Shown in pieces: positions 32,680 through 45,012 of a stretch of 64,000 nt of DNA. The DNA is from an uncultured Fibrobacteraceae bacterium (GTDB lineage Bacteria > Krumholzibacteriota > Krumholzibacteriia > LZORAL124-64-63): positions 4,417 through 68,416 of the forward strand of contig CAYLMM010000005.1 in the NCBI GenBank assembly GCA_964384825.1, in the 5' to 3' direction. Made by a program: the position numbers and the translations under genes. The notes beneath the pieces were generated by a model. The model saw only the letters and a program-made list of their open reading frames with translations, made no database searches and had not been told where the DNA came from. Within the stretch, counting starts at the first letter, position 1; the number at the start of each line of letters is the position of its first letter.

Positions 32680-34041
<1,362 letters not shown>

Positions 34042-34224
34042 ACGCAACAGGTCGTGAAGGGATTGACAGGTGGTATCCTGCACCCTAGTTTGATAGAATA
34101 TCAGAGGGAGGGACTCCTCGTCCCCCAGATGAATCCGTCCTCCTGGAGGATGGACAGATCCCGAGCGATCGGGAGCCGGTTTCGAGAGCGTGTACAGTGC
34201 ACGTTCGTTACTACGGAGAGGGAA

Positions 34225-34548
34225 ATGAAGAAAGCATTATGTGCCATGACGATGGTCACTCTGGTGCTTCTTCCCGCTTTGGTGGCGACGCCCGCCTTCG
34301 CTTCCCCTGCCGTCCAGGTGATCAACCCGACAACCCAGACGTGCCCGCCGTCGATCGATGACTCCATCGACGGCCCGCAAGAGTACGGTCTGGACGGAGA
34401 TCCGGACGATGCCATCATCGGCAACAAGGGCAAACCCGTCATTAACAACACCAGTGGTGTGGTTTTGCCGCAGGGGATGCTGATCAACGAATTGCTGGAT
34501 TGCCTGTACGGCATGGCAGCCAGCATCGTGCAGGCGGTCGCCTTGTAG
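34225..34548 (+). CDS. small secreted Cys-containing protein (107 aa), low-GC relative to the genome
   Basis: GGAGAGGGAA RBS. Signal peptide 'MKKALCAMTMVTLVLLPALVATPAFA'. The mature ~80 aa is acidic ('DGPQEYGLDGDPDD') with two Cys. Local GC is clearly lower than in the flanking genes. Confidence 0.45.
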   Translation: MKKALCAMTMVTLVLLPALVATPAFASPAVQVINPTTQTCPPSIDDSIDGPQEYGLDGDPDDAIIGNKGKPVINNTSGVVLPQGMLINELLDCLYGMAASIVQAVAL

Positions 34549-34566
34549 AATCCTCTTCGGAGGATT
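34549..34566 (+). other. perfect 7-bp hairpin with TTCG tetraloop immediately after the stop of the small secreted gene
   Basis: 'aatcctc-ttcg-gaggatt' begins 1 nt after TAG 34546-34548. No U-tract follows directly; a T7 run sits about 38 nt downstream at 34604-34610. Confidence 0.4.
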
Positions 34567-34646
34567 CCGGGCTGAAGCTGCGCCTGGGGCAGAGAACAAC
34601 AAGCGGATCGTTTTTTTGCCCACCTACTCGCCAGGGGACAAAAACG

Positions 34647-37600
34647 ATGAGTGACAACATCGAAGGCCGCAAACGCAAGGACGCCGATCGTTCGGTGCCT
34701 CGAATTGTGCGTGGCGGCGGGGACCTCGACCGGCTCGAAGAGATCGGGGACCTGCATTTCGAAGCTTCCGCCTTTTCTTCCGCGCTGGAGTATTACCAGC
34801 GTTTGCTGGATGCCGCCCGTTACGATCTCATCGATCCCGCCCGTTCCCTCGGCATTCTGCGCAAGAGCATAGACGCCGCCCTGAACCTGGGCGATCATGC
34901 CCTGGCCGAGGGCCTGCTGGCCCGCGCCTCCGATTTCGCCGGTCCGGATTCCGACCTCGATTCCGAGGACCGCATGATGCTGCTGGCCCCGATCATGGGC
35001 CGCCGGGCCGGTCTGCTGGCCAATCGCAGTTCCTACGCCAAGGCCCTGCAGCTCGCCAAACACGCCTTCGCGGTGCTGGCCATCACCGACGACCACAAGG
35101 AAGTGGCCAACCTCCAGGTCACCATGGGCGTCTGCCACCAGCGCCTGGGCCGCCCCGGCAAGGCCGAGGAATTCTACACCGACGCCCTGGCCACCTTCCG
35201 CCGAATCGGCGATGAGCTGGGCACGGCCATCCTCTACAACAACCTCGCCCTGCTGCAGAAGAACAGCTGCCGCTGGGACCGCGCGCTGCAGCTCCAGGAG
35301 AAGGCCGTCGCCGTGGCCCGCCGCCACGGGGCGACCCATCTGCTCTCGCGCCTCTACCTCAACGAGGGCATCATCCTGCGCAAGACCGGCCGTCTGGGCG
35401 AGGCTCGGGCCAGTCTCGAGAAATGTCTCCGGCTGTCGCGCAGCCTGGGCGACATCGCCCGCCAGACCAAGGCTTCCCTGGCCCTCGGATATCTCGAACT
35501 CGAAGAGGGGCACCAGGCCCGGGCCGAGGAGATGATCATCGCCGGCAAGACGCTGGCCGAAGAGGGCGGCTTCGTTCGCGAGGCCACCATCGCCGACGAG
35601 TATCTCGGCGACATCCTGCTTTCCCGCGGCGAGATCGACAAGGCGCTCTACAATTACCAGCTGGGCCTGCGCAAGACCCAGGTGATCGGCAAGGTGACCG
35701 ATCTCGAGGGCGAACTTCTTCGCCGCAGCGCCGAGGCCTACCGACTGCGCGGCGAGATCGACGAAGCCATCTCCACCGGCCAGGCGGCTGTCGCGGTCTG
35801 CGAATCCTGCGGCGAGGAATACGAACTCGGATTCTGTTTCCGGACCCTGGGCCAGGCCTTCACCGAAGCCGGCGAGTTCTCCGAGGCCGACCGTTATTTC
35901 CGCGATTCGATCGGACAGTTCCGCCAGCAGAATCTCCAGGCCGAGATCAGCCGTTCGGTCCTGGCGTTCCTCGAAGCCCGGCTCCCGAGCGCCGGCCGGT
36001 CCGAACTGCTGCTGCTGCGCCGGTATCTGGTCGAGGCCATCGAACGCCGCGTGTCCGATGACGCTCTGCTGCGCGGCCTCCATCGCGGTCTGGCCGAGAT
36101 CCAGCTGCGGCTGGGACAATTCGAAGAGGCGCTGCTGACGGTGGCGGAACTCGATCGTCTCAGCGTTGGCGGTTCCGTCGGCGCGGAAGAGGACGAGGTC
36201 GCCGTTCTGCGCCAGCGCATCGAAAAGCGTCTTGCCGGAGACCTGTCCTCCGCCAAGGAGCATATGGAAGCCATGACCGCGGTTCCCGGCCTGGTCGAAG
36301 GGGAGGAGATCGCGGCCCAGAGCCTGGCGTCCATCCTGAAATCCGGACTGGCCAAGACGGGGGGCGATTCGGGCTTCCTTGCCCTGCGCCGGGCCGATTC
36401 CCGGATCGAAGTGATCGCGGCCGAAGGCGTTTCCGGCGGTTCGGCGGCGTCCTTGGCCGGTTGGTACTCGGACCGCTCCGGACATGATGATCCTGTCGCT
36501 CCCTTGGTCATGACCCGGATCGAGCCGGACAGCGAATTGGCCGTCGCGATCCCCGCGCTCGCCGATCTGGCGGACAGCTGCGTTTTCCTGCCCGTGACCC
36601 ATGAAGGCGTCGATTACGGCGTCCTGTTCCTGGCCAAGCGGAATTCCTCCGGCGCTCGAGCCTCGTTCTCCCGCGCCTCCCTGGAGTTCCTGACCGCCTA
36701 TCTCGGCTTCCTGGGCGTTTTCCTCGCCGCGGTGCCCGGTCGCCGTTCGAACGCCTCGCCGATCCCGATCGAGGAACGGGAATGCTTCGAGAACATCATC
36801 ACAGGCGACGAGCTGATGCTCGAACTGCTCGGTTTGATCCGCAAGGTCGCACCGAGCGAATTGACCGTCCTGCTGCACGGCGAGACGGGCACCGGCAAGG
36901 GGCTGCTCGCCTATGCCATCCACGCGCTGAGTTCTCGCAAGGACGACAGGTTCCTGGCGGTCAACTGCGCGGCCATTCCCGAATCGCTGCTCGAAAGCGA
37001 ACTGTTCGGCCATGTCCGGGGCAGCTTCACCGGTGCGGTCGCGGACAAGGCGGGCCTGCTGGTCGAGGCCGAGGGCGGAACCCTCTTCCTCGATGAGATC
37101 GGGAAGATGCCGCTGGCCATGCAGGGCAAGCTCCTGCACTTCCTCGACACCAAGGTCGTCCGCCCGGTGGGATCGAACATCGAACGGCGGGTGGATGTCC
37201 GCATCATCTGCGCGACCAAGGGCGATCTCCAGGAAATGGCGACCCGCGGCGACTTCCTCGAGGATCTCTACTACCGGCTGCTCGATTTCCCGCTGCGCGT
37301 GCCGCCCCTGCGCGAGCGTCCCGAGGATATCCGGTTGCTGGTCCAGCACTTCATCGCCCGCTTCGCCGCCGAACTGGGGCGTTCGGTCCCGGGCTTCACT
37401 TCCGCCGTGGCCGCGGCTCTCCAGAATTACCTCTGGCCGGGCAATGTTCGCGAACTCGAGAAGTGTCTGCGCCGCGCCATCGTACTGTCGCAGGACGACG
37501 ACATGCTCCGGCTCTCCCATCTGCCCGCCGAGATCGCGGGCGTCGGAGTCGAGAGCGGCGACCCGGCCCGCGTCGCGCCGTTGCGGGAAACCCTCAGCGC

Positions 37601-37733
37601 TGTCGAAAGCCGCGAGATAGCTGCGGCTTTGCGCGCGTCGGGCGGCAACAAGTCCGAAGCCGGACGCATGCTCGGCATCAGCTACCCCAGCCTGCTCAGA
37701 AAGATCCGCCTCTACGGGATCACTTCCGACTGA
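34647..37733 (+). CDS. large sigma-54 enhancer-binding protein: N-terminal TPR array + GAF-like domain + sigma-54 AAA+ + HTH (no receiver domain)
   Basis: About 700 aa of TPR-like repeats, followed by 'LLHGETGTGKGLLAYAIH', 'ESELFGHVRGSFTGA' (GAFTGA) and a C-terminal Fis-type HTH 'GGNKSEAGRMLGISYPSLLRKI'. 1028 aa. The antisense ORF 34101..37955 is an artefact. Confidence 0.75.
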   Translation: MSDNIEGRKRKDADRSVPRIVRGGGDLDRLEEIGDLHFEASAFSSALEYYQRLLDAARYDLIDPARSLGILRKSIDAALNLGDHALAEGLLARASDFAGPDSDLDSEDRMMLLAPIMGRRAGLLANRSSYAKALQLAKHAFAVLAITDDHKEVANLQVTMGVCHQRLGRPGKAEEFYTDALATFRRIGDELGTAILYNNLALLQKNSCRWDRALQLQEKAVAVARRHGATHLLSRLYLNEGIILRKTGRLGEARASLEKCLRLSRSLGDIARQTKASLALGYLELEEGHQARAEEMIIAGKTLAEEGGFVREATIADEYLGDILLSRGEIDKALYNYQLGLRKTQVIGKVTDLEGELLRRSAEAYRLRGEIDEAISTGQAAVAVCESCGEEYELGFCFRTLGQAFTEAGEFSEADRYFRDSIGQFRQQNLQAEISRSVLAFLEARLPSAGRSELLLLRRYLVEAIERRVSDDALLRGLHRGLAEIQLRLGQFEEALLTVAELDRLSVGGSVGAEEDEVAVLRQRIEKRLAGDLSSAKEHMEAMTAVPGLVEGEEIAAQSLASILKSGLAKTGGDSGFLALRRADSRIEVIAAEGVSGGSAASLAGWYSDRSGHDDPVAPLVMTRIEPDSELAVAIPALADLADSCVFLPVTHEGVDYGVLFLAKRNSSGARASFSRASLEFLTAYLGFLGVFLAAVPGRRSNASPIPIEERECFENIITGDELMLELLGLIRKVAPSELTVLLHGETGTGKGLLAYAIHALSSRKDDRFLAVNCAAIPESLLESELFGHVRGSFTGAVADKAGLLVEAEGGTLFLDEIGKMPLAMQGKLLHFLDTKVVRPVGSNIERRVDVRIICATKGDLQEMATRGDFLEDLYYRLLDFPLRVPPLRERPEDIRLLVQHFIARFAAELGRSVPGFTSAVAAALQNYLWPGNVRELEKCLRRAIVLSQDDDMLRLSHLPAEIAGVGVESGDPARVAPLRETLSAVESREIAAALRASGGNKSEAGRMLGISYPSLLRKIRLYGITSD

Positions 37734-37944
37734 TCCATTGCTCCTTTTTTGATTATCCCCGCCAGGACTGTAAAATTTTTTAATAATCCAACTTGTTGCA
37801 TACCAGGGCTTTACGTTTTTCACCCCCGGAGCTGTAAATGATTGTGATAATTTACGCGATTCCGCTTGCCGGCGACGATGCCGCCTTGCTATGTAACTCG
37901 TTGTCAGAAAGCAAGTTGCAATTATGTTAATAGTCTTCTGCTTC

Positions 37945-37960
37945 TGGTACGGCACCTGCT
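37945..37960 (+). promoter_or_regulatory. sigma-54-like -24/-12 element TGGTAC-N5-cTGCT (candidate)
   Basis: GG at 37946-47 and GC at 37958-59 with the canonical 10-nt spacing. 5/6 and 4/5 matches to TGGCAC-N5-TTGCW. It lies inside the 850-bp low-GC non-coding island. Confidence 0.3.
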
Positions 37961-38519
37961 GTAATCGAACCAGGAAGGGACCAGTTGCAGGGAACTTCTG
38001 GTTCTGGACAGGTTGCTGGGAATTTCGGGAATCCAGGAGGTGAATCGGGTTCGTTCTCCATGTGCTGACCGGCTGAGTGGAGATGTTTCATCGAGTAGTA
38101 TCCGCAGCGCGGTGGTCGAGAGGTGGGGTCCCGGTCATCGATGACAGTGGATGTGGAAACAATGAATCCGATTCGCGTTCTCCCTCTTAGAGGGTCCTGA
38201 AATTCCCAGCCCCGACACACCGAGATCTTCTGGAAAGAGCCTTTCCGTTCTTGAAATGGCGAGATTCAAGAACGGTCCAGCCATTGCGGGGCGGGCTCTT
38301 TCCTTCTTTTCCCCCTGGAATTTCCTCTTCGTTTTTCAGCGTCCCCTTCTGGGGAACGGGTTGCCCAATGGGGGACACAATCCGCTTTGCGGGAGACGTG
38401 TCAGGTGGGCTCCGTGTTGCGACCCATCCAACCCTGGTGTATTATTAATGCATTGAAAAATAATCTCTTACAGCTCAGTCTGGCTGGATTCCCCTGCGCG
38501 GCGTACTCTCGGGGATGAA

Positions 38520-38536
38520 CGGCACGGACCATGCGT
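38520..38536 (+). promoter_or_regulatory. sigma-54-like -24/-12 element cGGCACG-N4-aTGCg about 50 nt upstream of ATG 38585 (candidate)
   Basis: GG at 38521-22 and GC at 38533-34 with 10-nt spacing. GGCACG matches the -24 core. It is followed by a 45-nt leader with an AGGAG RBS. Confidence 0.35.
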
Positions 38537-38584
38537 AATGGTAATCGGGCAAACAAGAGCACGCTTCAGACAGGAGTTTCTGGC

Positions 38585-39586
38585 ATGAAGAACACACGCG
38601 GACACGATTGTCACGAAGTGGTGCCGCGGACGCACGCGGGATCCGGAATCCTGCATCACCCCTCGATTCCGGGTCCCCGCGCCGTCTGGCTGTTGCTCGG
38701 TCTGCTGGTTCTGGTCGCTCCGCTGCTTCTGGTGGGCGGGTGCGACGATGACGAAGTCGTCGCCGTCCCTGTCGATCAGACTCCGCCGCCGGTGCCCACG
38801 GGCATCTTCTCGGTGACCGGAGACGGCTTTGTGACCGTCTACTGGAACGATATCTACGACGAGGATCTGGCCGGCTACGACGTCTACCGCTACCAGGGCG
38901 ACGACCCGGTCGGCGGAGCCTACAACTACATCGGTTCGGTAGCCTGGGACGAGAATTTCGATTCCGAATCCCTGCTGCACTGGTTCGACGACCTGAACGT
39001 CGTGAATGGGGAGACCTACTATTACGCCGTGCTGGCCTATGATTATGCAGGCAACGAGAGCTATCTCAGTTTCGAGACCATCGTCGATACCCCGCGGCCG
39101 GCAGGCTACGATCTGGTCGTATTCGACCGCGCCGCTTCGCCGATCCGGTCGGGTGTCGATTTCTACGATTTCGATATGATGATCGGCGCCGAAGCTGTTC
39201 CCTACGACGCCGTGGACGCCGATGTCTATGTGACCTTCAGCGATGGCGTGCCTTTCGTGGAAGCGGCCCGGGAAGGGATCCTGCTGCAGGATTACGGCAC
39301 CGTGCTGCTGGACTGGGCGGACTACGCGCCCGCGGACGGGTATTCCGCCACGGGCCGGCTTGAACTGATCACCGGGCACGCCTACATCGTGCGGATCGTC
39401 GAGGAATACGAGATCGGCGGGACGCCGATCCAGGAATTGCATTACGCCAAATTCGGCGTCACCGCCATCGGTGCGGACGCCGTGACGATCGACTGGGCCT
39501 ACCAGGTCGATCGTGAAAATCCGGAGCTGGGCGCGCCCGACGGGCCGCCCGCGGCCGGAGGCGGAGCCGCCGTCGTGCGGTTCTGA
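38585..39586 (+). CDS. lipoprotein with fibronectin type III-like domain
   Basis: AGGAG RBS. Lipobox 'LLLVGGCDDD'. 'FSVTGDGFVTVYWNDIYDEDLAGYDVYRY...GETYYYAVLAYDYAGNES' is an FN3 signature. Confidence 0.55.
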   Translation: MKNTRGHDCHEVVPRTHAGSGILHHPSIPGPRAVWLLLGLLVLVAPLLLVGGCDDDEVVAVPVDQTPPPVPTGIFSVTGDGFVTVYWNDIYDEDLAGYDVYRYQGDDPVGGAYNYIGSVAWDENFDSESLLHWFDDLNVVNGETYYYAVLAYDYAGNESYLSFETIVDTPRPAGYDLVVFDRAASPIRSGVDFYDFDMMIGAEAVPYDAVDADVYVTFSDGVPFVEAAREGILLQDYGTVLLDWADYAPADGYSATGRLELITGHAYIVRIVEEYEIGGTPIQELHYAKFGVTAIGADAVTIDWAYQVDRENPELGAPDGPPAAGGGAAVVRF

Positions 39587-39621: not shown

Positions 39622-41385
39622 ATGACCATGGGACGCAAGGAGAAACGATACGATCGCTGCGAGCGGCGGAACTGCCGGGTTCTGCGGGCGGTGGTCCGTT
39701 CCGCCCTGCTCCTGTCGGCGATGGCCTTGCTGCTGACCGTGCCCGGAGCCGGCCTCGCCGCCGAGCGGGAGCAGTGGACGGATTACGACGCCCAGCCGTT
39801 GCGCGTGAACATCTGGCACGACCGCGACGAGGGCGACGTCTATCGGCGCGGCGAATCGGTTCGGGTCCACTTCGAGACCAAGCAGGACGCCTACGCGGTC
39901 GTCTATCGCATCGACGCCTCCGGCGAGGTGACGGTTCTCTGGCCGCGCAGCCGCATGGATGACGGATTCGTGTTCGGCGGGCACGTGTACAACCTGCCGT
40001 CGCCGGGCGCGCCGCGCATCAAGGTCGGGGCGGAGGACGGCATCGAATACATCGAGGCCGTGGTCTCGCTCTATCCCTTCGATCTGCGCGGTCTGGATCT
40101 CGATTTCCATCATGAGCGCGAGGATGTTTCCCGGGCGTTCTTCGTTGCGGGAGATCCCTTCCTGGCCATGAACGAGATCAACCACGAGATCACCGGGCTC
40201 GAGGATCCCGCGGACTTCGTGGTCACCAACTACACCAACTACTACGTCGGGCGCGAGGTGGCGCATCCGCGTTACATGTGCAGCCAGTGCCACGATGACG
40301 ACGTGCGGTACGAACCCTACCGCGACACCTGCTCCATCGAGATCCACTACGATTACGGCTGGTACAACGACTGGTACGGCCGCTACGGGTACTATCCGGT
40401 CTATTACTATCCGGCCTACTACTACGTCGATCCCTGGACATGGAGCCCGTGGGTGAACTACTGGTACCGTCCGTGGTACCGCTGGCCCGGCGGTTTCGCC
40501 TACAGCTGGGGCTGGGATTGCTACGTCTGGAACTACTCGCCCTACTGGCGGGGGGATTCCTGGGTTCGCTACAAGGCGGGCAACCGTCGCTACCGGCCTC
40601 TGGACAAGGGCGTCCGCTACAAGAGCCTGGCCGACGGCACTCCCTTCAATAATCCGAAAGGATTGGTCAAGACGGGTCGTCCGACGGCCGACATGGAATC
40701 GACGCTGCGGACCAAGACGATCGTCGCGCGTCCCGGGTCGAAGCCGGGCGGGGACGTGGCCAAGTCTCCGACCGCGGACAGGAAGATCTACAAGAACGTG
40801 GCCGCGCGCGATCGCGCGCCCGCCGTCATCGACAGGAGCGCCGCGCAGAAGTCCAAGGCCGGGCTGCGGATTCCCGGCGGTAGCCGCAGCAGCACCATCT
40901 CCACCGGCAAGGGCGCCCGGACGTTGTCCGGGAGCCGCGCGACCTCGTCGAGCCGGGTGAAATCGGTACCGCAGAGCGGGGCGTCCGGGAGTTCCGGGGA
41001 CAAGGTCCTGAAATCCCGTTCCGGCGGGGCCGCGAAGTCCAGCGGGACGGTGCGCAAATCGGTCGTGCCGCTGGAGAAGGGCTCGCGCGTCTGGAAGGGG
41101 CGCGGGGATACCGCCAAGTCTTCCGGCAAGGCGCAGGATTCCGCGGTCAGGAACCGGAACACCTCGGGCAAGTCGGGAACCGGCGGATCGTCCATCAGGG
41201 AATCCGGATCGAACCCGCAGCGCGAGCCGCGCAAGTCGCCCACGGTGAAGCCGGTGCCGCGCGGGGGATCTTCGCCGGTCAAGCGGCCCGCGCCGGTCAA
41301 GAGGTCGTCGCCGCGCAGCGGCAACCAGTCGAACGGCAAGTCCGGCGGCTCGACGACCAAGAACACCGGCGGCGGCCGGCGATGA
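39622..41385 (+). CDS. secreted DUF4384-domain protein with CXXCH motif, an extreme Tyr/Trp-rich segment and a long Ser/Gly/Lys/Arg-rich tail
   Basis: Signal/TM 'ALLLSAMALLLTVPGAGLAAE'. 'VRVHFETKQDAYAVVYRIDASGEVTVLWP' is the DUF4384 core. 'CSQCH' at 40279-40293. 'YDYGWYNDWYGRYGYYPVYYYPAYYYVDPWTWSPWVNYWYRPWYRWPGGFAYSWGWDCYVWNYSPYW' (~40340-40560). The tail of ~270 aa is S/G/K/R/T-rich low complexity. Confidence 0.6.
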   Translation: MTMGRKEKRYDRCERRNCRVLRAVVRSALLLSAMALLLTVPGAGLAAEREQWTDYDAQPLRVNIWHDRDEGDVYRRGESVRVHFETKQDAYAVVYRIDASGEVTVLWPRSRMDDGFVFGGHVYNLPSPGAPRIKVGAEDGIEYIEAVVSLYPFDLRGLDLDFHHEREDVSRAFFVAGDPFLAMNEINHEITGLEDPADFVVTNYTNYYVGREVAHPRYMCSQCHDDDVRYEPYRDTCSIEIHYDYGWYNDWYGRYGYYPVYYYPAYYYVDPWTWSPWVNYWYRPWYRWPGGFAYSWGWDCYVWNYSPYWRGDSWVRYKAGNRRYRPLDKGVRYKSLADGTPFNNPKGLVKTGRPTADMESTLRTKTIVARPGSKPGGDVAKSPTADRKIYKNVAARDRAPAVIDRSAAQKSKAGLRIPGGSRSSTISTGKGARTLSGSRATSSSRVKSVPQSGASGSSGDKVLKSRSGGAAKSSGTVRKSVVPLEKGSRVWKGRGDTAKSSGKAQDSAVRNRNTSGKSGTGGSSIRESGSNPQREPRKSPTVKPVPRGGSSPVKRPAPVKRSSPRSGNQSNGKSGGSTTKNTGGGRR

Positions 41386-41694: not shown

Positions 41695-44600
41695 ATGCGC
41701 ATTAAGATATTCCGAGCCTTGTCTTTGATCGCCGCTTCCCTCGCCTGTCTGGGGGCCGTGGATGCTCTCGCCGATACGGCGGCGCATCCCTTGGCCGCGG
41801 CGTCCGACAGGGGCTTCCAGCGGCAACTGTACCGATCGGCCGAGCGTCTCGGTCTGGACGGGGATCCGTCCCTGCAGGCCGCGCGGCTCGATGGCCGCGG
41901 CGCTCCCGACAGCCTGAACGCCGTCGTGCTGCTCTGCGTGTTCGCCGACAGCCTGTTCTACAGCCAGGACGGTCCCGCCGATCAGCGTCAGATCTCGCTT
42001 CCCTTCGCTCCCTACGCCGCCCACGATTCGACCTTTTTCGATCACCAGATGCGGGATGTGGCCGCCTATTTCGACGCGGTCAGCGGCGGGAAGTTTACCT
42101 TTGCGTTCACGATCCATCCCGAATTCGTCGAACTGCCGCGGGGGATGGGGTGGTACGGCGACAACGAGGAGCATGGCGAGTACCGGGCGGGGCTGGTCGA
42201 GGACTCGATTCTCGGAGCCGACGCCGATGTCGATTTCTCGCTCTACGACACGGTCGTGCTGATCCACGCCGGAGCGGGCGAAGAGACCGACATCCTGGGG
42301 AACTCGCCGGAGCAGATCTACAGCGGGTACATGGGGCCGGACGACTTCGTGGCGGCGGTCGCCGATACGCTGCTCGAAGTACCCTACATAGAGACCGACG
42401 ACGTGATGCCGGGCGGCGAACCCGCGCGGGTGCGGCACGTGCTCGTGCTGCCGGAGAACGAATTCCAGGATTCCTACATGGGGTACGGCGGGTTCTACGG
42501 ATCCCTGGGGGTCTACTGCTTCGAGGTCGGGTTGCGGCTGGGCATGCTGTCGCTGAGCGACGCGACGCCGGCGGGCGTTCCCGACAGCCAAGGGATCGGC
42601 AACTTCGGCCTTATGGGTTACGGATTGTTCGTCGGGGCCGGCTACATCCCGTCGCATCCCTGCGCCTTCAACAAGGTTCTGATGGGCTGGCTGGATCCGG
42701 TGGCCGTGGATCCGGCTGCGGGCGGGTTCTGGAACCTGCCGCCGGTCGAGGGGGAGAGCGGGACCTGCGCCCGGGTCGACATTTCGGACCGGGAATACTG
42801 GTTGCTGGAGTACCGGCTGCAGGATCCGGACGGCAACGGGATCTTCTCGCTGCCGGGCGATCTGAACGGGAACAACATCCCCGATTTCTACGACGATGAC
42901 GGTCCGGACGGGTGGCCGGTCGGATACTTCGATCCCGCCGTCGACCGGCGCGAATGGCTGGACGGTTCGGAATTCGATTTCTACATGAGCGAGAATTCGG
43001 CCCGGGCGCAAGGTGTCAAGGGCGCCGGGAGCGGGCTCTATATCTGGCATGTCGACGAGGGCGTGATCCGCGACGCATTCGCCGGCGGGGAACGCGTCTT
43101 CAATTCGAACGCCGAACGCAAGGCTGTCGATCTGGAAGAGGCCGACGGCATCCAGGACCTGGACACCCGCGTGGGGACGCCGTTTCTGCTCGGCGGCGAC
43201 GACGACGCTTTCCGGGGCGAGGGCGCCGTCAGGTTCGGACCCGATACCAGGCCCTCGACCGCGACTGCCGGGGGGGCGTTCACCGGACTGGTCCTGGACT
43301 CGATCTCCCCGGTCGTGGCGGATTCCTCCCATGTGCCCGCCGGCGAAACGGCTCCGGTGATCCTCTATGCGCCGAGCATGAGTTTCCGCTGCAGCGTGGA
43401 ATCCGTCGGCATCGGAGACGCCGATCTGATTGCAGCGGTCGATCTGCCGGGCGTGGACCTGACCGGGATGCATCCCCTGGCGGCGGACCTGGACGTGCCG
43501 GCAGACGGCACCCGCGAGATCGTGCTGGCGGGTTCCGGGGGGCGCGTTTTCGCTTTCCGCGCCGACCTGTCCTCTCTGGCCGCCGCCCCCGCCGAGCGGG
43601 GCCTGCTGGCCCTGGGCACCGACGCGGACGGCGAACCGGCGGAATGGATCGGCCCGCCGGCTGTCGGGGACGTGGACCGGGACGGGCGTCCGGAGATCGT
43701 GCTGGCCGCGACGACCGGCCTCTACGTGTTCAACGGCGAGGACGGCTCCGAATACGCGGACATGGACGCGGATACCGACAGCTACGGCTTGATGCTGCCC
43801 ACCGCGGACATCGTTCAGCCGCTCCTGCTGCTGTCGCGGACGGACGTTCCGCAGTTCGCCGACATCGTGCTGGCGATGGAATCCGACAGCGGCGGCGCCT
43901 CCCTGATGCGCGTCGATGTCGCCGGGGACGGGGATGTTGCGATGCCGCTGCCCGAGCCCGCAGGCTCCTTCGCGGCCCCGCCCGTGTTCTGGGGCGGCAG
44001 GCTCTGGGCGCTGACCGTCGATGACCCGGGCGGCGCGCTGCTGCAGACTGCCGACGATGTCGTTGCCCTGCCCGCGGAACCTTCGGGCCTGAGGCCCCTG
44101 GCGGTTGGCGACGCCCTGCTGATCCCGCTGATCGAGGGCGACGCGGTCCTGGCCGTGGACCCCGGCGATCCCCGGATCCGCAGCTGGCAGGGCCCGGCGC
44201 TGCTTTCGCCGCCCGTTCCGGGCGTGGCGTTCATCTCCGAGGGCGCGTTCAACGTCTGCGGCGTGGAAGGATTTCCGCGGACCGGATGGCCGCGGCGACC
44301 GATCGATGCCGTCGAGCCGGGGCCGGGCGCCGCCGCGGCCGGCCCCGCCGTGATCGAGACCGCCGCCGGCGATCCGCTCTATCTCTTCGCGGCCCGGGAC
44401 GGCCGCCTGATGCTCTACGATTCCCGGGGAGAGGTTCCGGGAAACCTCTCGACCCTGGCGGGTCCCGGCGACGCGGCCGGGTCGCCGCTGATGATGGATC
44501 TCGGGGGGGACGGCGGGATCGATATAGTCGCGGCCGGGTCGTTCCCCCGGCTGACGGGCATCGATCCGGATTCCGGCGAGCCGGCGACCGAACCGTCCTC

Positions 44601-45012
44601 GAGCGTCATGCGATGGCGCATCGACGGGTTCGCCGCCGGGCGCGAGATCTGGCCGCAGTGGGGAGGCACGCCGCTGCGCTCGGCCGCGGCTCCCGAAGCC
44701 GGCGGCGGACCGGGCGAGGGGGACGGGTTGCTGGCGCCGGGCGGCGGCATCTGCTATCCGAATCCGCTGGGCGCGGGGCCGCTGCACGTGCGCGCCGAGG
44801 CCCTCGTCGATTGCGAGATATCGGTGACGTTGTACAACCTGGAAGGGGAGGTCGTGGCCTCGCCGCCGTCGGTGACGGCGATCGCCGGCGATCCGATAGA
44901 AGTGCTGCTGTCCGTGGACGGGGCTGCTTCCGGCGTTTATCTTTGCCGGTTGGAAGCCCGCGCCGGGGGCCGTACCGAAAAGAGCATCCGTCCCGTCGCG
45001 ATCGAGCGTTGA
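41695..45012 (+). CDS. large secreted M6/InhA-like domain protein (no canonical HExxH seen) with repeat-rich middle and T9SS type-A CTD
   Basis: Signal peptide 'MRIKIFRALSLIAASLACLGAVDALA'. The N-domain 'AVVLLCVFADS...VVLIHAGAGEE' resembles the immune-inhibitor-A (M6) fold. The C-terminal 'ICYPNPLGAGPLHVRAEALVDCEISVTLYNLEGEVV...SGVYLCRLEARAGG' is a T9SS CTD. 1105 aa. Confidence 0.5.
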   Translation: MRIKIFRALSLIAASLACLGAVDALADTAAHPLAAASDRGFQRQLYRSAERLGLDGDPSLQAARLDGRGAPDSLNAVVLLCVFADSLFYSQDGPADQRQISLPFAPYAAHDSTFFDHQMRDVAAYFDAVSGGKFTFAFTIHPEFVELPRGMGWYGDNEEHGEYRAGLVEDSILGADADVDFSLYDTVVLIHAGAGEETDILGNSPEQIYSGYMGPDDFVAAVADTLLEVPYIETDDVMPGGEPARVRHVLVLPENEFQDSYMGYGGFYGSLGVYCFEVGLRLGMLSLSDATPAGVPDSQGIGNFGLMGYGLFVGAGYIPSHPCAFNKVLMGWLDPVAVDPAAGGFWNLPPVEGESGTCARVDISDREYWLLEYRLQDPDGNGIFSLPGDLNGNNIPDFYDDDGPDGWPVGYFDPAVDRREWLDGSEFDFYMSENSARAQGVKGAGSGLYIWHVDEGVIRDAFAGGERVFNSNAERKAVDLEEADGIQDLDTRVGTPFLLGGDDDAFRGEGAVRFGPDTRPSTATAGGAFTGLVLDSISPVVADSSHVPAGETAPVILYAPSMSFRCSVESVGIGDADLIAAVDLPGVDLTGMHPLAADLDVPADGTREIVLAGSGGRVFAFRADLSSLAAAPAERGLLALGTDADGEPAEWIGPPAVGDVDRDGRPEIVLAATTGLYVFNGEDGSEYADMDADTDSYGLMLPTADIVQPLLLLSRTDVPQFADIVLAMESDSGGASLMRVDVAGDGDVAMPLPEPAGSFAAPPVFWGGRLWALTVDDPGGALLQTADDVVALPAEPSGLRPLAVGDALLIPLIEGDAVLAVDPGDPRIRSWQGPALLSPPVPGVAFISEGAFNVCGVEGFPRTGWPRRPIDAVEPGPGAAAAGPAVIETAAGDPLYLFAARDGRLMLYDSRGEVPGNLSTLAGPGDAAGSPLMMDLGGDGGIDIVAAGSFPRLTGIDPDSGEPATEPSSSVMRWRIDGFAAGREIWPQWGGTPLRSAAAPEAGGGPGEGDGLLAPGGGICYPNPLGAGPLHVRAEALVDCEISVTLYNLEGEVVASPPSVTAIAGDPIEVLLSVDGAASGVYLCRLEARAGGRTEKSIRPVAIER

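What the first reader, a model, noticed from the sequence alone, without database searches (positions are those of the whole stretch)
37734..38584. 850-bp low-GC non-coding island with sigma-54-like promoter elements: candidate ncRNA or micro-peptide locus
In a roughly 69% GC genome where intergenic gaps are otherwise 0-150 bp, this stretch is far more AT-rich ('ttttttgattatcc', 'aaaattttttaataatcc', 'gttgcaattatgttaatag'). It has no convincing CDS of 60 aa or more. It contains 'TGGTAC-ggcac-cTGCT' at 37945..37960 and 'GGCACG-gacc-aTGCg' at 38520..38536, both with exact 10-nt GG-to-GC spacing, directly downstream of a sigma-54 activator gene. There is a possible 39-codon Cys/Trp-rich ORF (37924..38043, 'MLIVFCFWYGTCCNRTRKGPVAGNFWFWTGCWEFRESRR'), but it lacks an RBS. 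The island may encode a regulatory RNA, an enhancer (UAS) array for the bEBPs, or a small hydrophobic peptide.
Basis: seen in the sequence. Interest (0 to 1): 0.55.

Follow-up and report, generated by a model that had tools for sequence, protein, structure and literature searches.

The report
Sigma-54-driven structured small RNA gene
The AT-rich gap holds a previously undescribed ~340-base structured non-coding RNA gene with its own sigma-54 promoter, enhancer sites and terminator, followed by a second sigma-54 promoter for the neighbouring cell-surface operon; its function has not been tested.

Summary
Window 37734-38584 is the lowest-GC 851-nt stretch of the window (51.6% against 67.0%). It lies between a TPR-type sigma-54 activator gene and a lipoprotein operon, and it has no conserved ORF.

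The spacer is conserved in more than 20 related uncultured genomes and metagenome contigs, variously labelled Ca. Eisenbacteria, 'Fibrobacteraceae' and 'Gemmatimonas'. It resolves into three modules:

1. An enhancer-type upstream region. It has a 17-bp AT-rich palindrome at -177 and a degenerate copy at -113 from promoter P1, plus an IHF-like site at -52.
2. Sigma-54 promoter P1 (37945-37960), followed by a ~342-nt RNA (about 37970-38312, + strand). The RNA has a 5' hairpin, a three-way-junction core and a Y-shaped intrinsic terminator.
3. A GTCC/GGAC palindrome, a second IHF-like site and sigma-54 promoter P2 (38520-38535), which drives the lipoprotein/DUF4384/M6-like operon.

Covariation for the RNA is very strong. 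In the core, 93.8% of cells are paired and 38 of 43 pairs show compensatory change. In the 3' domain the figures are 95.4% and 14 of 20. No shuffle reached the observed pairing or covariation score.

Rfam has no match. The 39-codon ORF is rejected. The closest analogue is crcZ downstream of cbrB. Function is inferred to be trans-regulatory and is untested.

The parts
34647..37733 (+). Gene for a TPR-domain sigma-54 activator (bEBP, 1028 aa), immediately upstream of the island. A second, response-regulator-type bEBP gene lies at 32680-34041.
   Evidence: Pfam finds TPR_12, Sigma54_activat (7e-63), AAA_lid_14 and HTH_8. The gene call comes from L001. Synteny is conserved in L003-L009, L011, L015 and 18 metagenome loci.
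37769..37785 (.). UAS-1: a 17-bp AT-rich palindrome, TGTAAAATTTTTTAATA (consensus TRTNAA-N5-TTNAYA), at -177 from the GG of P1. It is the putative bEBP-binding enhancer site.
   Evidence: The motif occurs at -172 to -180 and/or -110 to -113 in 19 of 23 homologues. There are 23 hits against 0.3 in shuffles, a 38-fold excess over the background of all loci. Alignment A1 has invariant columns here.
37833..37849 (.). UAS-2: a degenerate second copy, TGTAAATGATTGTGATA, at -113 from P1, about 64 bp from UAS-1.
   Evidence: The site is read from the window sequence. This position carries a full match in L005-L007, L017, L022, L024, L034, L036 and L038. In the window it has one mismatch to the pattern.
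37894..37906 (.). IHF-like site TAACTCGTTGTCA (pattern YAA-N4-TTG-N2-W) at -52 from P1, between the enhancer and the promoter.
   Evidence: A match to the relaxed pattern YAA-N4-TTG-N2-W lies at -50 to -52 in 9 of 23 homologues, and at -37/-38 in three more. This is a consensus match only.
37945..37960 (+). Sigma-54 promoter P1, TGGTACGGCACCTGCT, with GG at 37946-47 and GC at 37958-59. The predicted transcription start is about 37970.
   Evidence: GG-N10-GC is invariant in all 8 aligned spacers. It lies 39-48 nt upstream of the first RNA block in nearly all true homologues.
37970..38312 (+). The ~342-nt structured non-coding RNA. The 5' end is predicted from P1 and the 3' end from the terminator U-tract.
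   Evidence: L009 is 80% identical over 37973-38313 while the flanking proteins are only 58-71% identical. MFE z-score is -3.8 on the + strand and -2.3 on the - strand. No ORF is conserved. Rfam has no match.
37977..38005 (+). 5' hairpin (stem 37977-37984 / 37998-38005). Its loop carries the conserved block UG(C/U)AGGGA (37986-37993).
   Evidence: TG(C/T)AGGGA is invariant in all 8 independently aligned spacers. It was then part of the scan pattern, so its constancy in the metagenome hits is by construction. A hairpin presenting AGGGA in the loop is the MFE fold in 24 of 24 homologues, with different stem sequences. RNAalifold on a MAFFT alignment failed because of register differences.
38015..38210 (+). 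Central domain: a long closing stem P2 (38036-38054 / 38162-38179, extended in this genome by 38015-38030 / 38195-38210) enclosing a three-way junction.
   Evidence: Inverted repeats I1 and I2. Model R1 hits 38033-38182 at 56.4 bits, E 2e-10. On A6, 93.8% of cells are paired, 38 of 43 pairs show compensatory change, and the covariation score is 0.694 against at most 0.175 for slid controls, with 0 of 500 shuffles reaching it.
38056..38082 (+). Hairpin P3. Its loop carries the conserved block ACCGGC (38068-38073).
   Evidence: ACCGGC is invariant in the 8 independently aligned spacers. Helix 3 of A6 has 6 of 7 pairs with changes on both sides.
38084..38161 (+). Long arm P4-P7: P4 38084-89 / 38156-61, P5 38100-06 / 38145-52, P6 38111-13 / 38137-39, and an apical stem 38118-21 / 38129-32 closing the heptaloop GGUGGGG (38122-38128).
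   Evidence: GA(G/T)GTGGGGT is invariant in the 8 independently aligned spacers. Helices 4-7 of A6 all show compensatory changes.
38229..38312 (+). 3' domain, a Y-shaped intrinsic terminator. The base stem is GAAAGAGCC/GGCUCUUUC (38233-42 / 38293-302). Hairpin T1 (38246-53 / 38267-74) has the conserved loop GGCGAGA (38258-64). A second small hairpin follows, then the U-rich tail CCUUCUUUUCC.
   Evidence: Model R2 scores 84.5 bits, E 1.6e-21, in the window and hits 23 homologues. On A10, 95.4% of cells are paired and 14 of 20 pairs show compensatory change, with 0 of 500 shuffles reaching the observed pairing. Every homologue folds to the same Y shape on its own. The simple terminator scan missed it because the 'loop' is branched.
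38341..38356 (.). Palindrome GTCCCCTTCTGGGGAA (GTCC-N6-8-GGAC), 179 nt upstream of the P2 match. It is the putative enhancer site for P2.
   Evidence: A GTCY...RGAM match lies 143-247 nt upstream of P2 in 20 of the 23 homologues with a P2; one of these, L034, has a weak match. The arm sequences are conserved rather than covarying, which fits a DNA site better than an RNA helix.
38446..38458 (.). IHF-like site TAATGCATTGAAA, about 75 nt upstream of P2.
   Evidence: This is a pattern match with one mismatch to YAA-N4-TTGATW. Comparable sites were found in only a minority of homologues.
38520..38535 (+). Sigma-54 promoter P2, CGGCACGGACCATGCG, for the downstream operon. The predicted 5' UTR is about 38 nt.
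   Evidence: A TGGCAY-N5-NTGC match lies upstream of the lipoprotein gene in all 23 homologues that extend far enough. It is followed by a short leader (about 20-60 nt) with a GGAG-type RBS. It is also present in the distant loci L010-L012, L014 and L015.
38585..39586 (+). First gene of the P2 operon: a 333-aa lipoprotein-like protein with a signal peptide and ...VGGC lipobox. It is followed by a DUF4384 protein (39628-41385) and an M6-like/FG-GAP protein (41695-45012).
   Evidence: ORF and RBS. Pfam finds DUF4384 and FG-GAP_3. NCBIfam gives sub-threshold hits to the T9SS-dependent M6-like inactivated metalloprotease and a T9SS sorting tail.

Best explanation
The island is a compact sigma-54 regulatory module that contains a stand-alone gene for a structured non-coding RNA.

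Shown by sequence, conservation and covariation:
- A conserved -24/-12 promoter (P1, 37945-37960). Upstream of it lie two 17-bp AT-rich palindromes at fixed distances (-177 and -113) and an IHF-like site (-52).
- A ~342-nt transcript on the + strand (about 37970-38312). It folds into a 5' hairpin, a three-way-junction core and a branched intrinsic terminator. It carries four conserved single-stranded blocks: AGGGA, ACCGGC, GGUGGGG and GGCGAGA.
- A second conserved sigma-54 promoter (P2, 38520-38535) with its own GTCC/GGAC palindrome. P2 drives the lipoprotein/DUF4384/M6-like surface-protein operon.

Inferred:
- One or both of the bEBPs encoded just upstream (the TPR-type and the response-regulator-type) bind the palindromes. 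With IHF-assisted looping they activate sigma-54 RNA polymerase at P1 and P2.
- The RNA and the envelope operon are therefore co-induced outputs of one signalling module.
- The RNA is released at its terminator and acts in trans as a regulator. It would use its conserved exposed loops to bind a protein or complementary RNAs.

Which partner it binds is unknown.
For: - Spacer: it is retained (640-850 bp) with the same flanking genes in 9 genome loci and 18 metagenome loci.
- Promoters: P1 and P2 are conserved.
- UAS motif: it sits at fixed positions in 19 of 23 homologues, with 23 hits against 0.3 in shuffles.
- Conservation: L009 is 80% identical in nucleotides across 37973-38313, although the neighbouring proteins are only 58-71% identical.
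- Core model R1: it finds every syntenic homologue except the low-GC clade (L005/L007/L024, 10-19 bits) and none of the 11 non-syntenic pattern hits. The sense strand scores 41-160 bits against 21-34 bits for the antisense strand.
- Covariation: core 93.8% paired, 38 of 43 pairs compensatory; 3' domain 95.4% paired, 14 of 20 pairs compensatory. Shuffle and slid controls are far lower.
- Independent folds: MFE folds of all subgroups give the same architecture.
- Coding: no conserved ORF.
- Synteny-blind search: a DNA pattern scan of metagenomes recovered the RNA only in this genomic context.
- Precedent: crcZ lies immediately downstream of cbrB and needs CbrB plus RpoN (PMC5113210).
Against: - There are no expression data. 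The transcription start, the 3' end and sigma-54 dependence are predictions.
- Neither promoter motif is above chance within the single window.
- The pair counts were made on alignments fitted to the covariance models, which leans towards the model structure.
- The simple terminator scan found no terminator. One homologue (L006) lacks a clear U-tract and is missed by R2.
- No target, partner or repeated binding motif was identified, so the trans-acting step is inference.
- Read-through from P1 into the operon cannot be excluded.
- Which bEBP binds which palindrome is not tested.
Confidence: 0.75

Rival explanations
1. The structured RNA is a cis-acting leader (a riboswitch- or attenuator-like element). 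Transcription from P1 would run into the lipoprotein operon. The conserved three-way-junction domain would sense a ligand or protein and decide whether the Y-shaped terminator forms.
For: A structured domain followed directly by an intrinsic terminator, on the same strand and upstream of an operon, is the classic layout of a transcriptional riboswitch. The conserved junction and invariant loops could form a binding pocket. The RNA is always next to the same operon.
Against: - A complete, conserved sigma-54 promoter (P2) with its own upstream palindrome and a short leader (about 20-60 nt) lies between the terminator and the gene in all 23 homologues that extend far enough.
- The terminator-to-P2 distance is long and variable, about 210-510 nt.
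- The linker between core and terminator varies in sequence and length, and L025 carries an insertion of about 100 nt. This argues against a conserved antiterminator.
- The terminator itself carries a conserved loop (GGCGAGA), which suggests a role beyond an expression platform.
Confidence: 0.13
2. The island is only regulatory DNA: enhancer sites, IHF sites and promoters for the downstream operon. On this view the conserved blocks between P1 and P2 are protein-binding DNA, not a functional RNA.
For: Several conserved elements are clearly DNA-type sites, being palindromes with conserved arm sequences at fixed distances. Sigma-54 systems often have long upstream regulatory regions.
Against: - 52 of 63 modelled base pairs keep pairing through changes on both sides, which DNA-site conservation does not produce.
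- The models show strong strand asymmetry.
- A promoter sits directly upstream and a stem plus U-tract directly downstream of the conserved structure.
Confidence: 0.04
3. The island encodes a small protein, such as the 39-codon Cys/Trp-rich ORF at 37924-38043 or another micro-ORF.
For: Short ORFs exist on both strands. Close relatives share peptide similarity in several frames.
Against: - The ORF's ATG lies 21 nt upstream of the -24 element, so it is outside the predicted transcript, and it has no RBS.
- No ORF is conserved in position, frame, strand or length across the 24 homologues. Some homologues have no ORF of 40 codons or more.
- Similarity appears in several frames and on both strands at once, as expected from nucleotide conservation.
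- Indels between homologues are not multiples of three.
Confidence: 0.02

Closest known systems
CrcZ sRNA downstream of cbrB (Pseudomonas)
   Same: The sRNA gene lies immediately downstream of the gene for a sigma-54 activator. It is transcribed from its own RpoN promoter, which requires that activator (PMC5113210). By my recollection its size is comparable, about 400 nt against about 342 nt here.
   Different: There is no sequence or structure match: Rfam gives nothing at gathering score or at E up to 10. By my recollection CrcZ works through several repeated A-rich motifs that titrate Hfq/Crc. This RNA has no repeated motif. It has single copies of four conserved loops and a three-way junction. 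The activator here has a TPR sensor domain rather than a receiver domain, and the phylum is different.
Other sigma-54-dependent sRNAs encoded next to their activator: Qrr1/LuxO (Vibrio), GlmY/GlrR (Enterobacteria), Pxr/PxrR (Myxococcus). Recalled from my own knowledge, not tested here.
   Same: They share the regulatory logic of a bEBP plus sigma-54 (with IHF for GlmY) driving a small RNA gene adjacent to the regulator gene.
   Different: By my recollection those RNAs are about 100-190 nt, with simple stem-loops and defined seed or decoy mechanisms. None matches this region in Rfam. This RNA is about twice as long, with about 63 modelled covarying base pairs in three domains.
Transcriptional riboswitches and attenuator leaders
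   Same: A conserved multi-helix junction is followed by an intrinsic terminator on the coding strand upstream of an operon.
   Different: A separate conserved promoter (P2) with its own enhancer site lies between the terminator and the operon. The distance to the start codon is 270 nt or more. No conserved antiterminator was seen. No known riboswitch family matches.
CsrB/RsmZ-type protein-sequestering RNAs
   Same: The 5' hairpin presents AGGGA in its loop, which resembles a CsrA/RsmA GGA-loop site. The overall idea of a structured RNA acting through exposed loops also fits.
   Different: Those RNAs carry many GGA loops, whereas only one is conserved here. There is no Rfam match.

Membership tests
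Sigma-54 (RpoN) dependent promoter with enhancer | GG and GC doublets exactly 10 nt apart in a TGGCAC-N5-TTGCW-like context, conserved in orthologous positions | tested here: met
   P1 is TGGTAC-GGCAC-CTGC and P2 is CGGCAC-GGACC-ATGC. GG/GC are invariant in A1. P1 is present in nearly all homologues and P2 in all 23 that extend far enough. Within the single window the motif is not above chance.
Sigma-54 (RpoN) dependent promoter with enhancer | Upstream activator sites (palindromes) about 100-200 bp upstream, and a bEBP encoded in the genome | tested here: met
   TRTNAA-N5-TTNAYA lies at about -175 and about -111 in 19 of 23 homologues. GTCC..GGAC lies 143-247 nt upstream of P2. Two bEBP genes lie directly upstream. 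Binding itself was not tested.
Sigma-54 (RpoN) dependent promoter with enhancer | Transcription requires RpoN and ATP hydrolysis by the bEBP | not testable with these tools
   This needs reporter or in vitro transcription assays.
Structured non-coding RNA gene | Base pairs maintained by compensatory substitutions across homologues | tested here: met
   In A6, 38 of 43 pairs show compensatory change and 93.8% of cells are paired. In A10 the figures are 14 of 20 and 95.4%. Shuffle and slid controls are far lower. The caveat is that both alignments were fitted to the covariance models.
Structured non-coding RNA gene | No conserved reading frame | tested here: met
   No ORF is shared in position, frame or strand among the 24 homologues.
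Structured non-coding RNA gene | A discrete transcript is detected | not testable with these tools
Intrinsic (Rho-independent) terminator | G+C-rich stem immediately followed by a U-tract | tested here: met
   The base stem GAAAGAGCC/GGCUCUUUC is followed by CUUCUUUU. The same arrangement occurs in 22 of 24 homologues. It is atypical because the stem encloses two hairpins, so the simple scan missed it.
Any Rfam 15 family (including CrcZ, Qrr, GlmY/GlmZ, 6S, CsrB/RsmZ and riboswitches) | Covariance-model score at or above the family's gathering threshold | tested here: not met
   There were 0 matches in the whole window at gathering score. At E up to 10 on 37500-38800 there were only three chance-level hits of 14-17 bits, against thresholds of 45-75.
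Riboswitch / cis-acting leader | Lies in the 5' UTR of the regulated gene with no intervening promoter, with mutually exclusive terminator and antiterminator pairing | tested here: not met
   A conserved P2 promoter and its enhancer lie between the terminator and the gene. The linker is variable and no conserved antiterminator was seen. An explicit search for alternative pairing was not run.
CsrB/RsmZ-like or CrcZ-like protein sponge | Multiple repeated binding motifs (GGA loops, or A-rich CA motifs) | tested here: not met
   Only one conserved AGGGA loop and one ARN-like stretch (CAACAAGAAGG) are present. There is no repeat family in the region.
Small-protein gene | Conserved ORF with an RBS inside the transcript | tested here: not met
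   The ORF 37924-38043 starts upstream of P1, has no RBS and is not conserved.

The most novel reading that the evidence does not exclude
The RNA is the founding member of a new class of large, complex-folded bacterial RNAs. On this reading its conserved three-way junction and four conserved loops form a specific binding surface for a protein or small ligand. It would then act as a sensor or sequestering RNA, feeding back on the sigma-54 module or on surface-protein (T9SS cargo) production in an uncultured phylum, rather than as an ordinary base-pairing sRNA. More distant relatives (L011, L015) carry a different sigma-54-driven RNA at the same position. That suggests an old, evolving RNA slot within this module.
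Probability: 0.25. Interest if true: 0.8.

Novelty: new variant of a known kind. Interest (0 to 1): 0.6.

Why it matters
The finding adds a well-supported, previously undescribed structured RNA family. It is about 342 nt long, with about 63 modelled base pairs, most of them covarying, and it has no Rfam match.

The RNA comes from a candidate phylum with no cultured members and essentially no known RNA regulators. Unusually, its regulatory inputs can be read directly from the sequence: a sigma-54 promoter, enhancer palindromes, an IHF-like site and adjacent activator genes.

The finding also shows that the 'activator gene followed by a sigma-54-dependent sRNA' arrangement, known from Proteobacteria (cbrB-crcZ and others), recurs in the FCB-related Eisenbacteria lineage. 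This gives a concrete handle for studying how these organisms control a cell-surface operon. The two distinct palindrome types next to two bEBP genes make a testable model of promoter-specific activation.

Tried and rejected
- Rfam at gathering score on the whole window, and at E up to 10 on the island, gave nothing meaningful. No tRNA or tmRNA was found.
- The simple terminator scan found none, because the terminator stem is branched.
- RNAalifold on raw MAFFT alignments of the whole RNA, the core and the 5' hairpin gave poor or empty consensus structures because helices were out of register between subgroups. This was solved with subgroup folds and covariance models.
- Eleven of the 29 metagenome pattern hits turned out to be chance. 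They have no synteny, no promoter, no 3' domain and no CM hit.
- The core model does not detect the RNA in the distant loci L010-L016, and only weakly in the low-GC clade L005/L007/L024.
- I looked by eye for loop-loop or loop-leader complementarity: L1 with J3/4, loops with the operon 5' UTR, and an SD-mimic reading of GGAGGUG. Nothing was consistent across homologues.
- Literature searches found no description of an Eisenbacteria RNA motif.
- Micro-peptide reading: rejected.
- Third covariance model (for the 5' hairpin): not built.
Full report
**Observation.** Window 37734-38584 is 51.6% G+C in a 67.0% G+C window. It is the lowest-GC 851-nt stretch of the whole 64 kb, and the most AT-rich part is 37734-37944 at 42.7%. 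It lies between two + strand genes. Upstream is a 1028-aa protein with TPR repeats, a sigma-54 interaction AAA+ domain and a Fis-type HTH, ending at 37733. Downstream is a 333-aa lipoprotein-like gene that starts at 38585 behind an AGGAG RBS. A second sigma-54 activator of the response-regulator type is encoded just before, at 32680-34041. Taken alone in one window, such a motif is not above chance, with 1 hit against 0.83 expected. The 39-codon ORF exists.

**Relatives.** The exact lipoprotein sequence places the window on a metagenome scaffold, MUDA16-1 (ENA ERZ23495300). A protein-seeded scan of one genome per species returned 14 loci from uncultured bacteria labelled Ca. Eisenbacteria, 'Fibrobacteraceae', 'Gemmatimonas' and others. 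Nine of them keep the order TPR-bEBP, 640-850-bp spacer, lipoprotein; the seven with enough upstream sequence also show the RR-bEBP. L009 is 80% identical over window 37973-38313, although its flanking proteins are only 71% and 58% identical.

Alignment of eight spacers revealed invariant blocks: TG(C/T)AGGGA, ACCGGC, GA(G/T)GTGGGGT and GGCGAGA, plus the nearly invariant GCTCTTT, and two invariant GG-N10-GC promoters. A synteny-blind DNA pattern made from three of those blocks was scanned over the metagenome collection and gave 29 loci. Eighteen of them are true homologues: 17 have the same flanking genes, and the short contig L045 has the promoter and the RNA only. The other 11 lack synteny, promoter, 3' domain and model hits, and are chance matches.

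**The RNA.** Independent MFE or alifold folds of every subgroup give the same architecture:
- A 5' hairpin presenting AGGGA in its loop.
- A long stem (P2) closing a three-way junction.
- A hairpin (P3) whose loop holds ACCGGC.
- A long arm (P4-P7) ending in a hairpin closed by GA/UC, with the heptaloop (G/U)GUGGGG.
- After a variable linker, a Y-shaped 3' domain. Its base stem GAAAGAGCC/GGCUCUUUC is followed by a U-tract, and its first branch carries the loop GGCGAGA.

Three of these blocks were part of the scan pattern. Their invariance is therefore independent only in the eight genome-derived spacers.

A covariance model of the core (R1: 152 positions, 43 pairs, built from 10 sequences) finds every syntenic homologue except the low-GC clade at 41-160 bits on the sense strand, against 21-34 bits antisense. 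It places the window copy at 38033-38182 (56.4 bits, E 2e-10). On the resulting 21-sequence alignment 93.8% of cells form standard pairs and 38 of 43 pairs show changes on both sides. The covariation score is 0.694 against at most 0.175 when partners are slid, and 0 of 500 shuffles reach the observed values.

A model of the 3' domain (R2: 85 positions, 20 pairs) hits window 38229-38312 (84.5 bits) and 23 homologues, including the divergent low-GC clade. There, 95.4% of cells are paired and 14 of 20 pairs show compensatory change. These alignments are fitted to the models, which favours the structure. However, the margin over the controls is very large, and the independent folds agree.

No ORF is conserved in position, frame, strand or length. 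Rfam 15 has no match at gathering score in the whole window, and only chance-level hits at E up to 10 in the island.

**Transcription signals.** P1 (TGGTACGGCACCTGCT, 37945-37960) lies 39-48 nt upstream of the first RNA block in nearly all homologues. The predicted start (about 37970) therefore coincides with the foot of the 5' hairpin.

Upstream of P1, a 17-bp AT-rich palindrome (TRTNAA-N5-TTNAYA) occurs at -172 to -180 and/or -110 to -113 in 19 of 23 homologues. That is 23 hits against 0.3 in shuffles, a 38-fold excess over background. In the window these are 37769-37785 and a one-mismatch copy at 37833-37849. An IHF-like YAA-N4-TTG site lies at about -51 in 9 of 23 homologues (window 37894-37906).

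Downstream of the terminator, a different palindrome lies 143-247 nt upstream of P2 (GTCC-N6-8-GGAC; window 38341-38356). Its arms are conserved in sequence rather than covarying. P2 itself (window 38520-38535) is present in all 23 homologues that extend far enough. It is followed by a short leader (about 20-60 nt) with a GGAG-type RBS, and it also occurs in the more distant loci that lack the RNA. The operon encodes a lipoprotein, a DUF4384 protein and a protein with sub-threshold similarity to T9SS-dependent M6-like inactive metalloproteases.

**Interpretation.** The island is fully accounted for by enhancer + IHF + P1, then a ~342-nt structured RNA with its own terminator, then enhancer + P2 + leader of a surface-protein operon. 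The following steps are inferred, not shown:
- The adjacent bEBPs bind the palindromes.
- The two palindrome types correspond to the two bEBPs.
- Transcription starts at about 37970 and stops at about 38312.
- The RNA works in trans.

I favour a trans-acting regulatory RNA for three reasons. First, the operon has its own conserved promoter between the terminator and the gene. Second, the linker and the terminator-to-gene distance are long and variable. Third, the terminator domain carries a conserved loop.

A riboswitch-like leader remains the main rival (about 0.13). A DNA-only reading and a micro-peptide reading are contradicted by covariation and by the ORF analysis.

**Comparison with known systems.** The closest analogue is crcZ, which sits immediately downstream of cbrB and is transcribed from an RpoN promoter that needs CbrB (PMC5113210). 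Qrr/LuxO, GlmY/GlrR and Pxr/PxrR follow the same logic; I recall these from my own knowledge and did not test them here. The present RNA is not a member of any of those families. It lacks the repeated motifs of sponge RNAs, and it is longer and more elaborately folded than typical base-pairing sRNAs. No paper describing an Eisenbacteria RNA motif was found. I therefore rate it a new RNA family that is a variant of a known regulatory kind.

**In passing.** Two more distant Eisenbacteria loci (L011, L015) have the same layout but a different P1-driven transcript. It begins with a shared hairpin, CGGAGGGGGGGACCUCCAA, which suggests an evolving RNA slot in this module.

Noticed in passing
L015:3410-3590 and L011:5400-5780: More distant Ca. 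Eisenbacteria loci keep the layout of TPR-bEBP, spacer, P2 and lipoprotein. Their P1-like sigma-54 promoter is followed by a different RNA. It starts with a shared hairpin, CGGAGGGGGGGACCUCCAA, and ends in a terminator. Models R1 and R2 do not hit it. It may be a divergent homologue or a positional analogue.
   Followed up: partly
window 38341-38381: Besides the GTCC..GGAC palindrome, a further conserved half-site-like block GGGGACA(C) lies about 25 nt downstream (window 38372-38379). The two palindrome types (AT-rich before P1, GTCC/GGAC before P2) next to two bEBP genes suggest one activator per promoter.
   Followed up: partly
window 38118-38132, and RBS regions of homologues: In most homologues the apical hairpin sequence GGAGGUGGGG contains the same GGAGGUG that serves as the Shine-Dalgarno sequence of the downstream genes in several relatives. 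Where the variable position is U (GAUGUG) the resemblance is lost, so an SD-mimic role is doubtful.
   Followed up: partly
L025: between the core domain and the 3' domain of the RNA: One homologue carries an insertion of about 100 nt in the linker between the core and the terminator domain, which shows that this linker is not constrained.
   Followed up: no
L006:700-800: The 71% G+C homologue has the GGCGAGA hairpin but no clear U-tract after the base stem, and R2 misses it. Termination there may work differently.
   Followed up: no
window 34101-37955 (- strand): A 1284-codon ORF on the opposite strand to the bEBP gene runs into the island. It is a typical high-GC shadow ORF, not a gene.
   Followed up: no
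window 34225-34548: A 107-aa ORF with no Pfam or NCBIfam match sits between the two bEBP genes and was called as a gene on the source scaffold. Its role is unknown.
   Followed up: partly
L018/L028/L031 and L020/L021/L027: Two groups of non-syntenic metagenome hits to the three-block DNA pattern are similar within each group in the ~75 nt upstream of the match, and are probably conserved coding regions elsewhere. They are unrelated to the RNA: they have no promoter, no 3' domain and no CM hit.
   Followed up: partly
window 41695-45012: The third operon protein shows sub-threshold similarity to T9SS-dependent M6-like inactivated metalloproteases and a weak T9SS sorting tail. This points to a secreted or surface function for the P2 operon.
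   Followed up: partly
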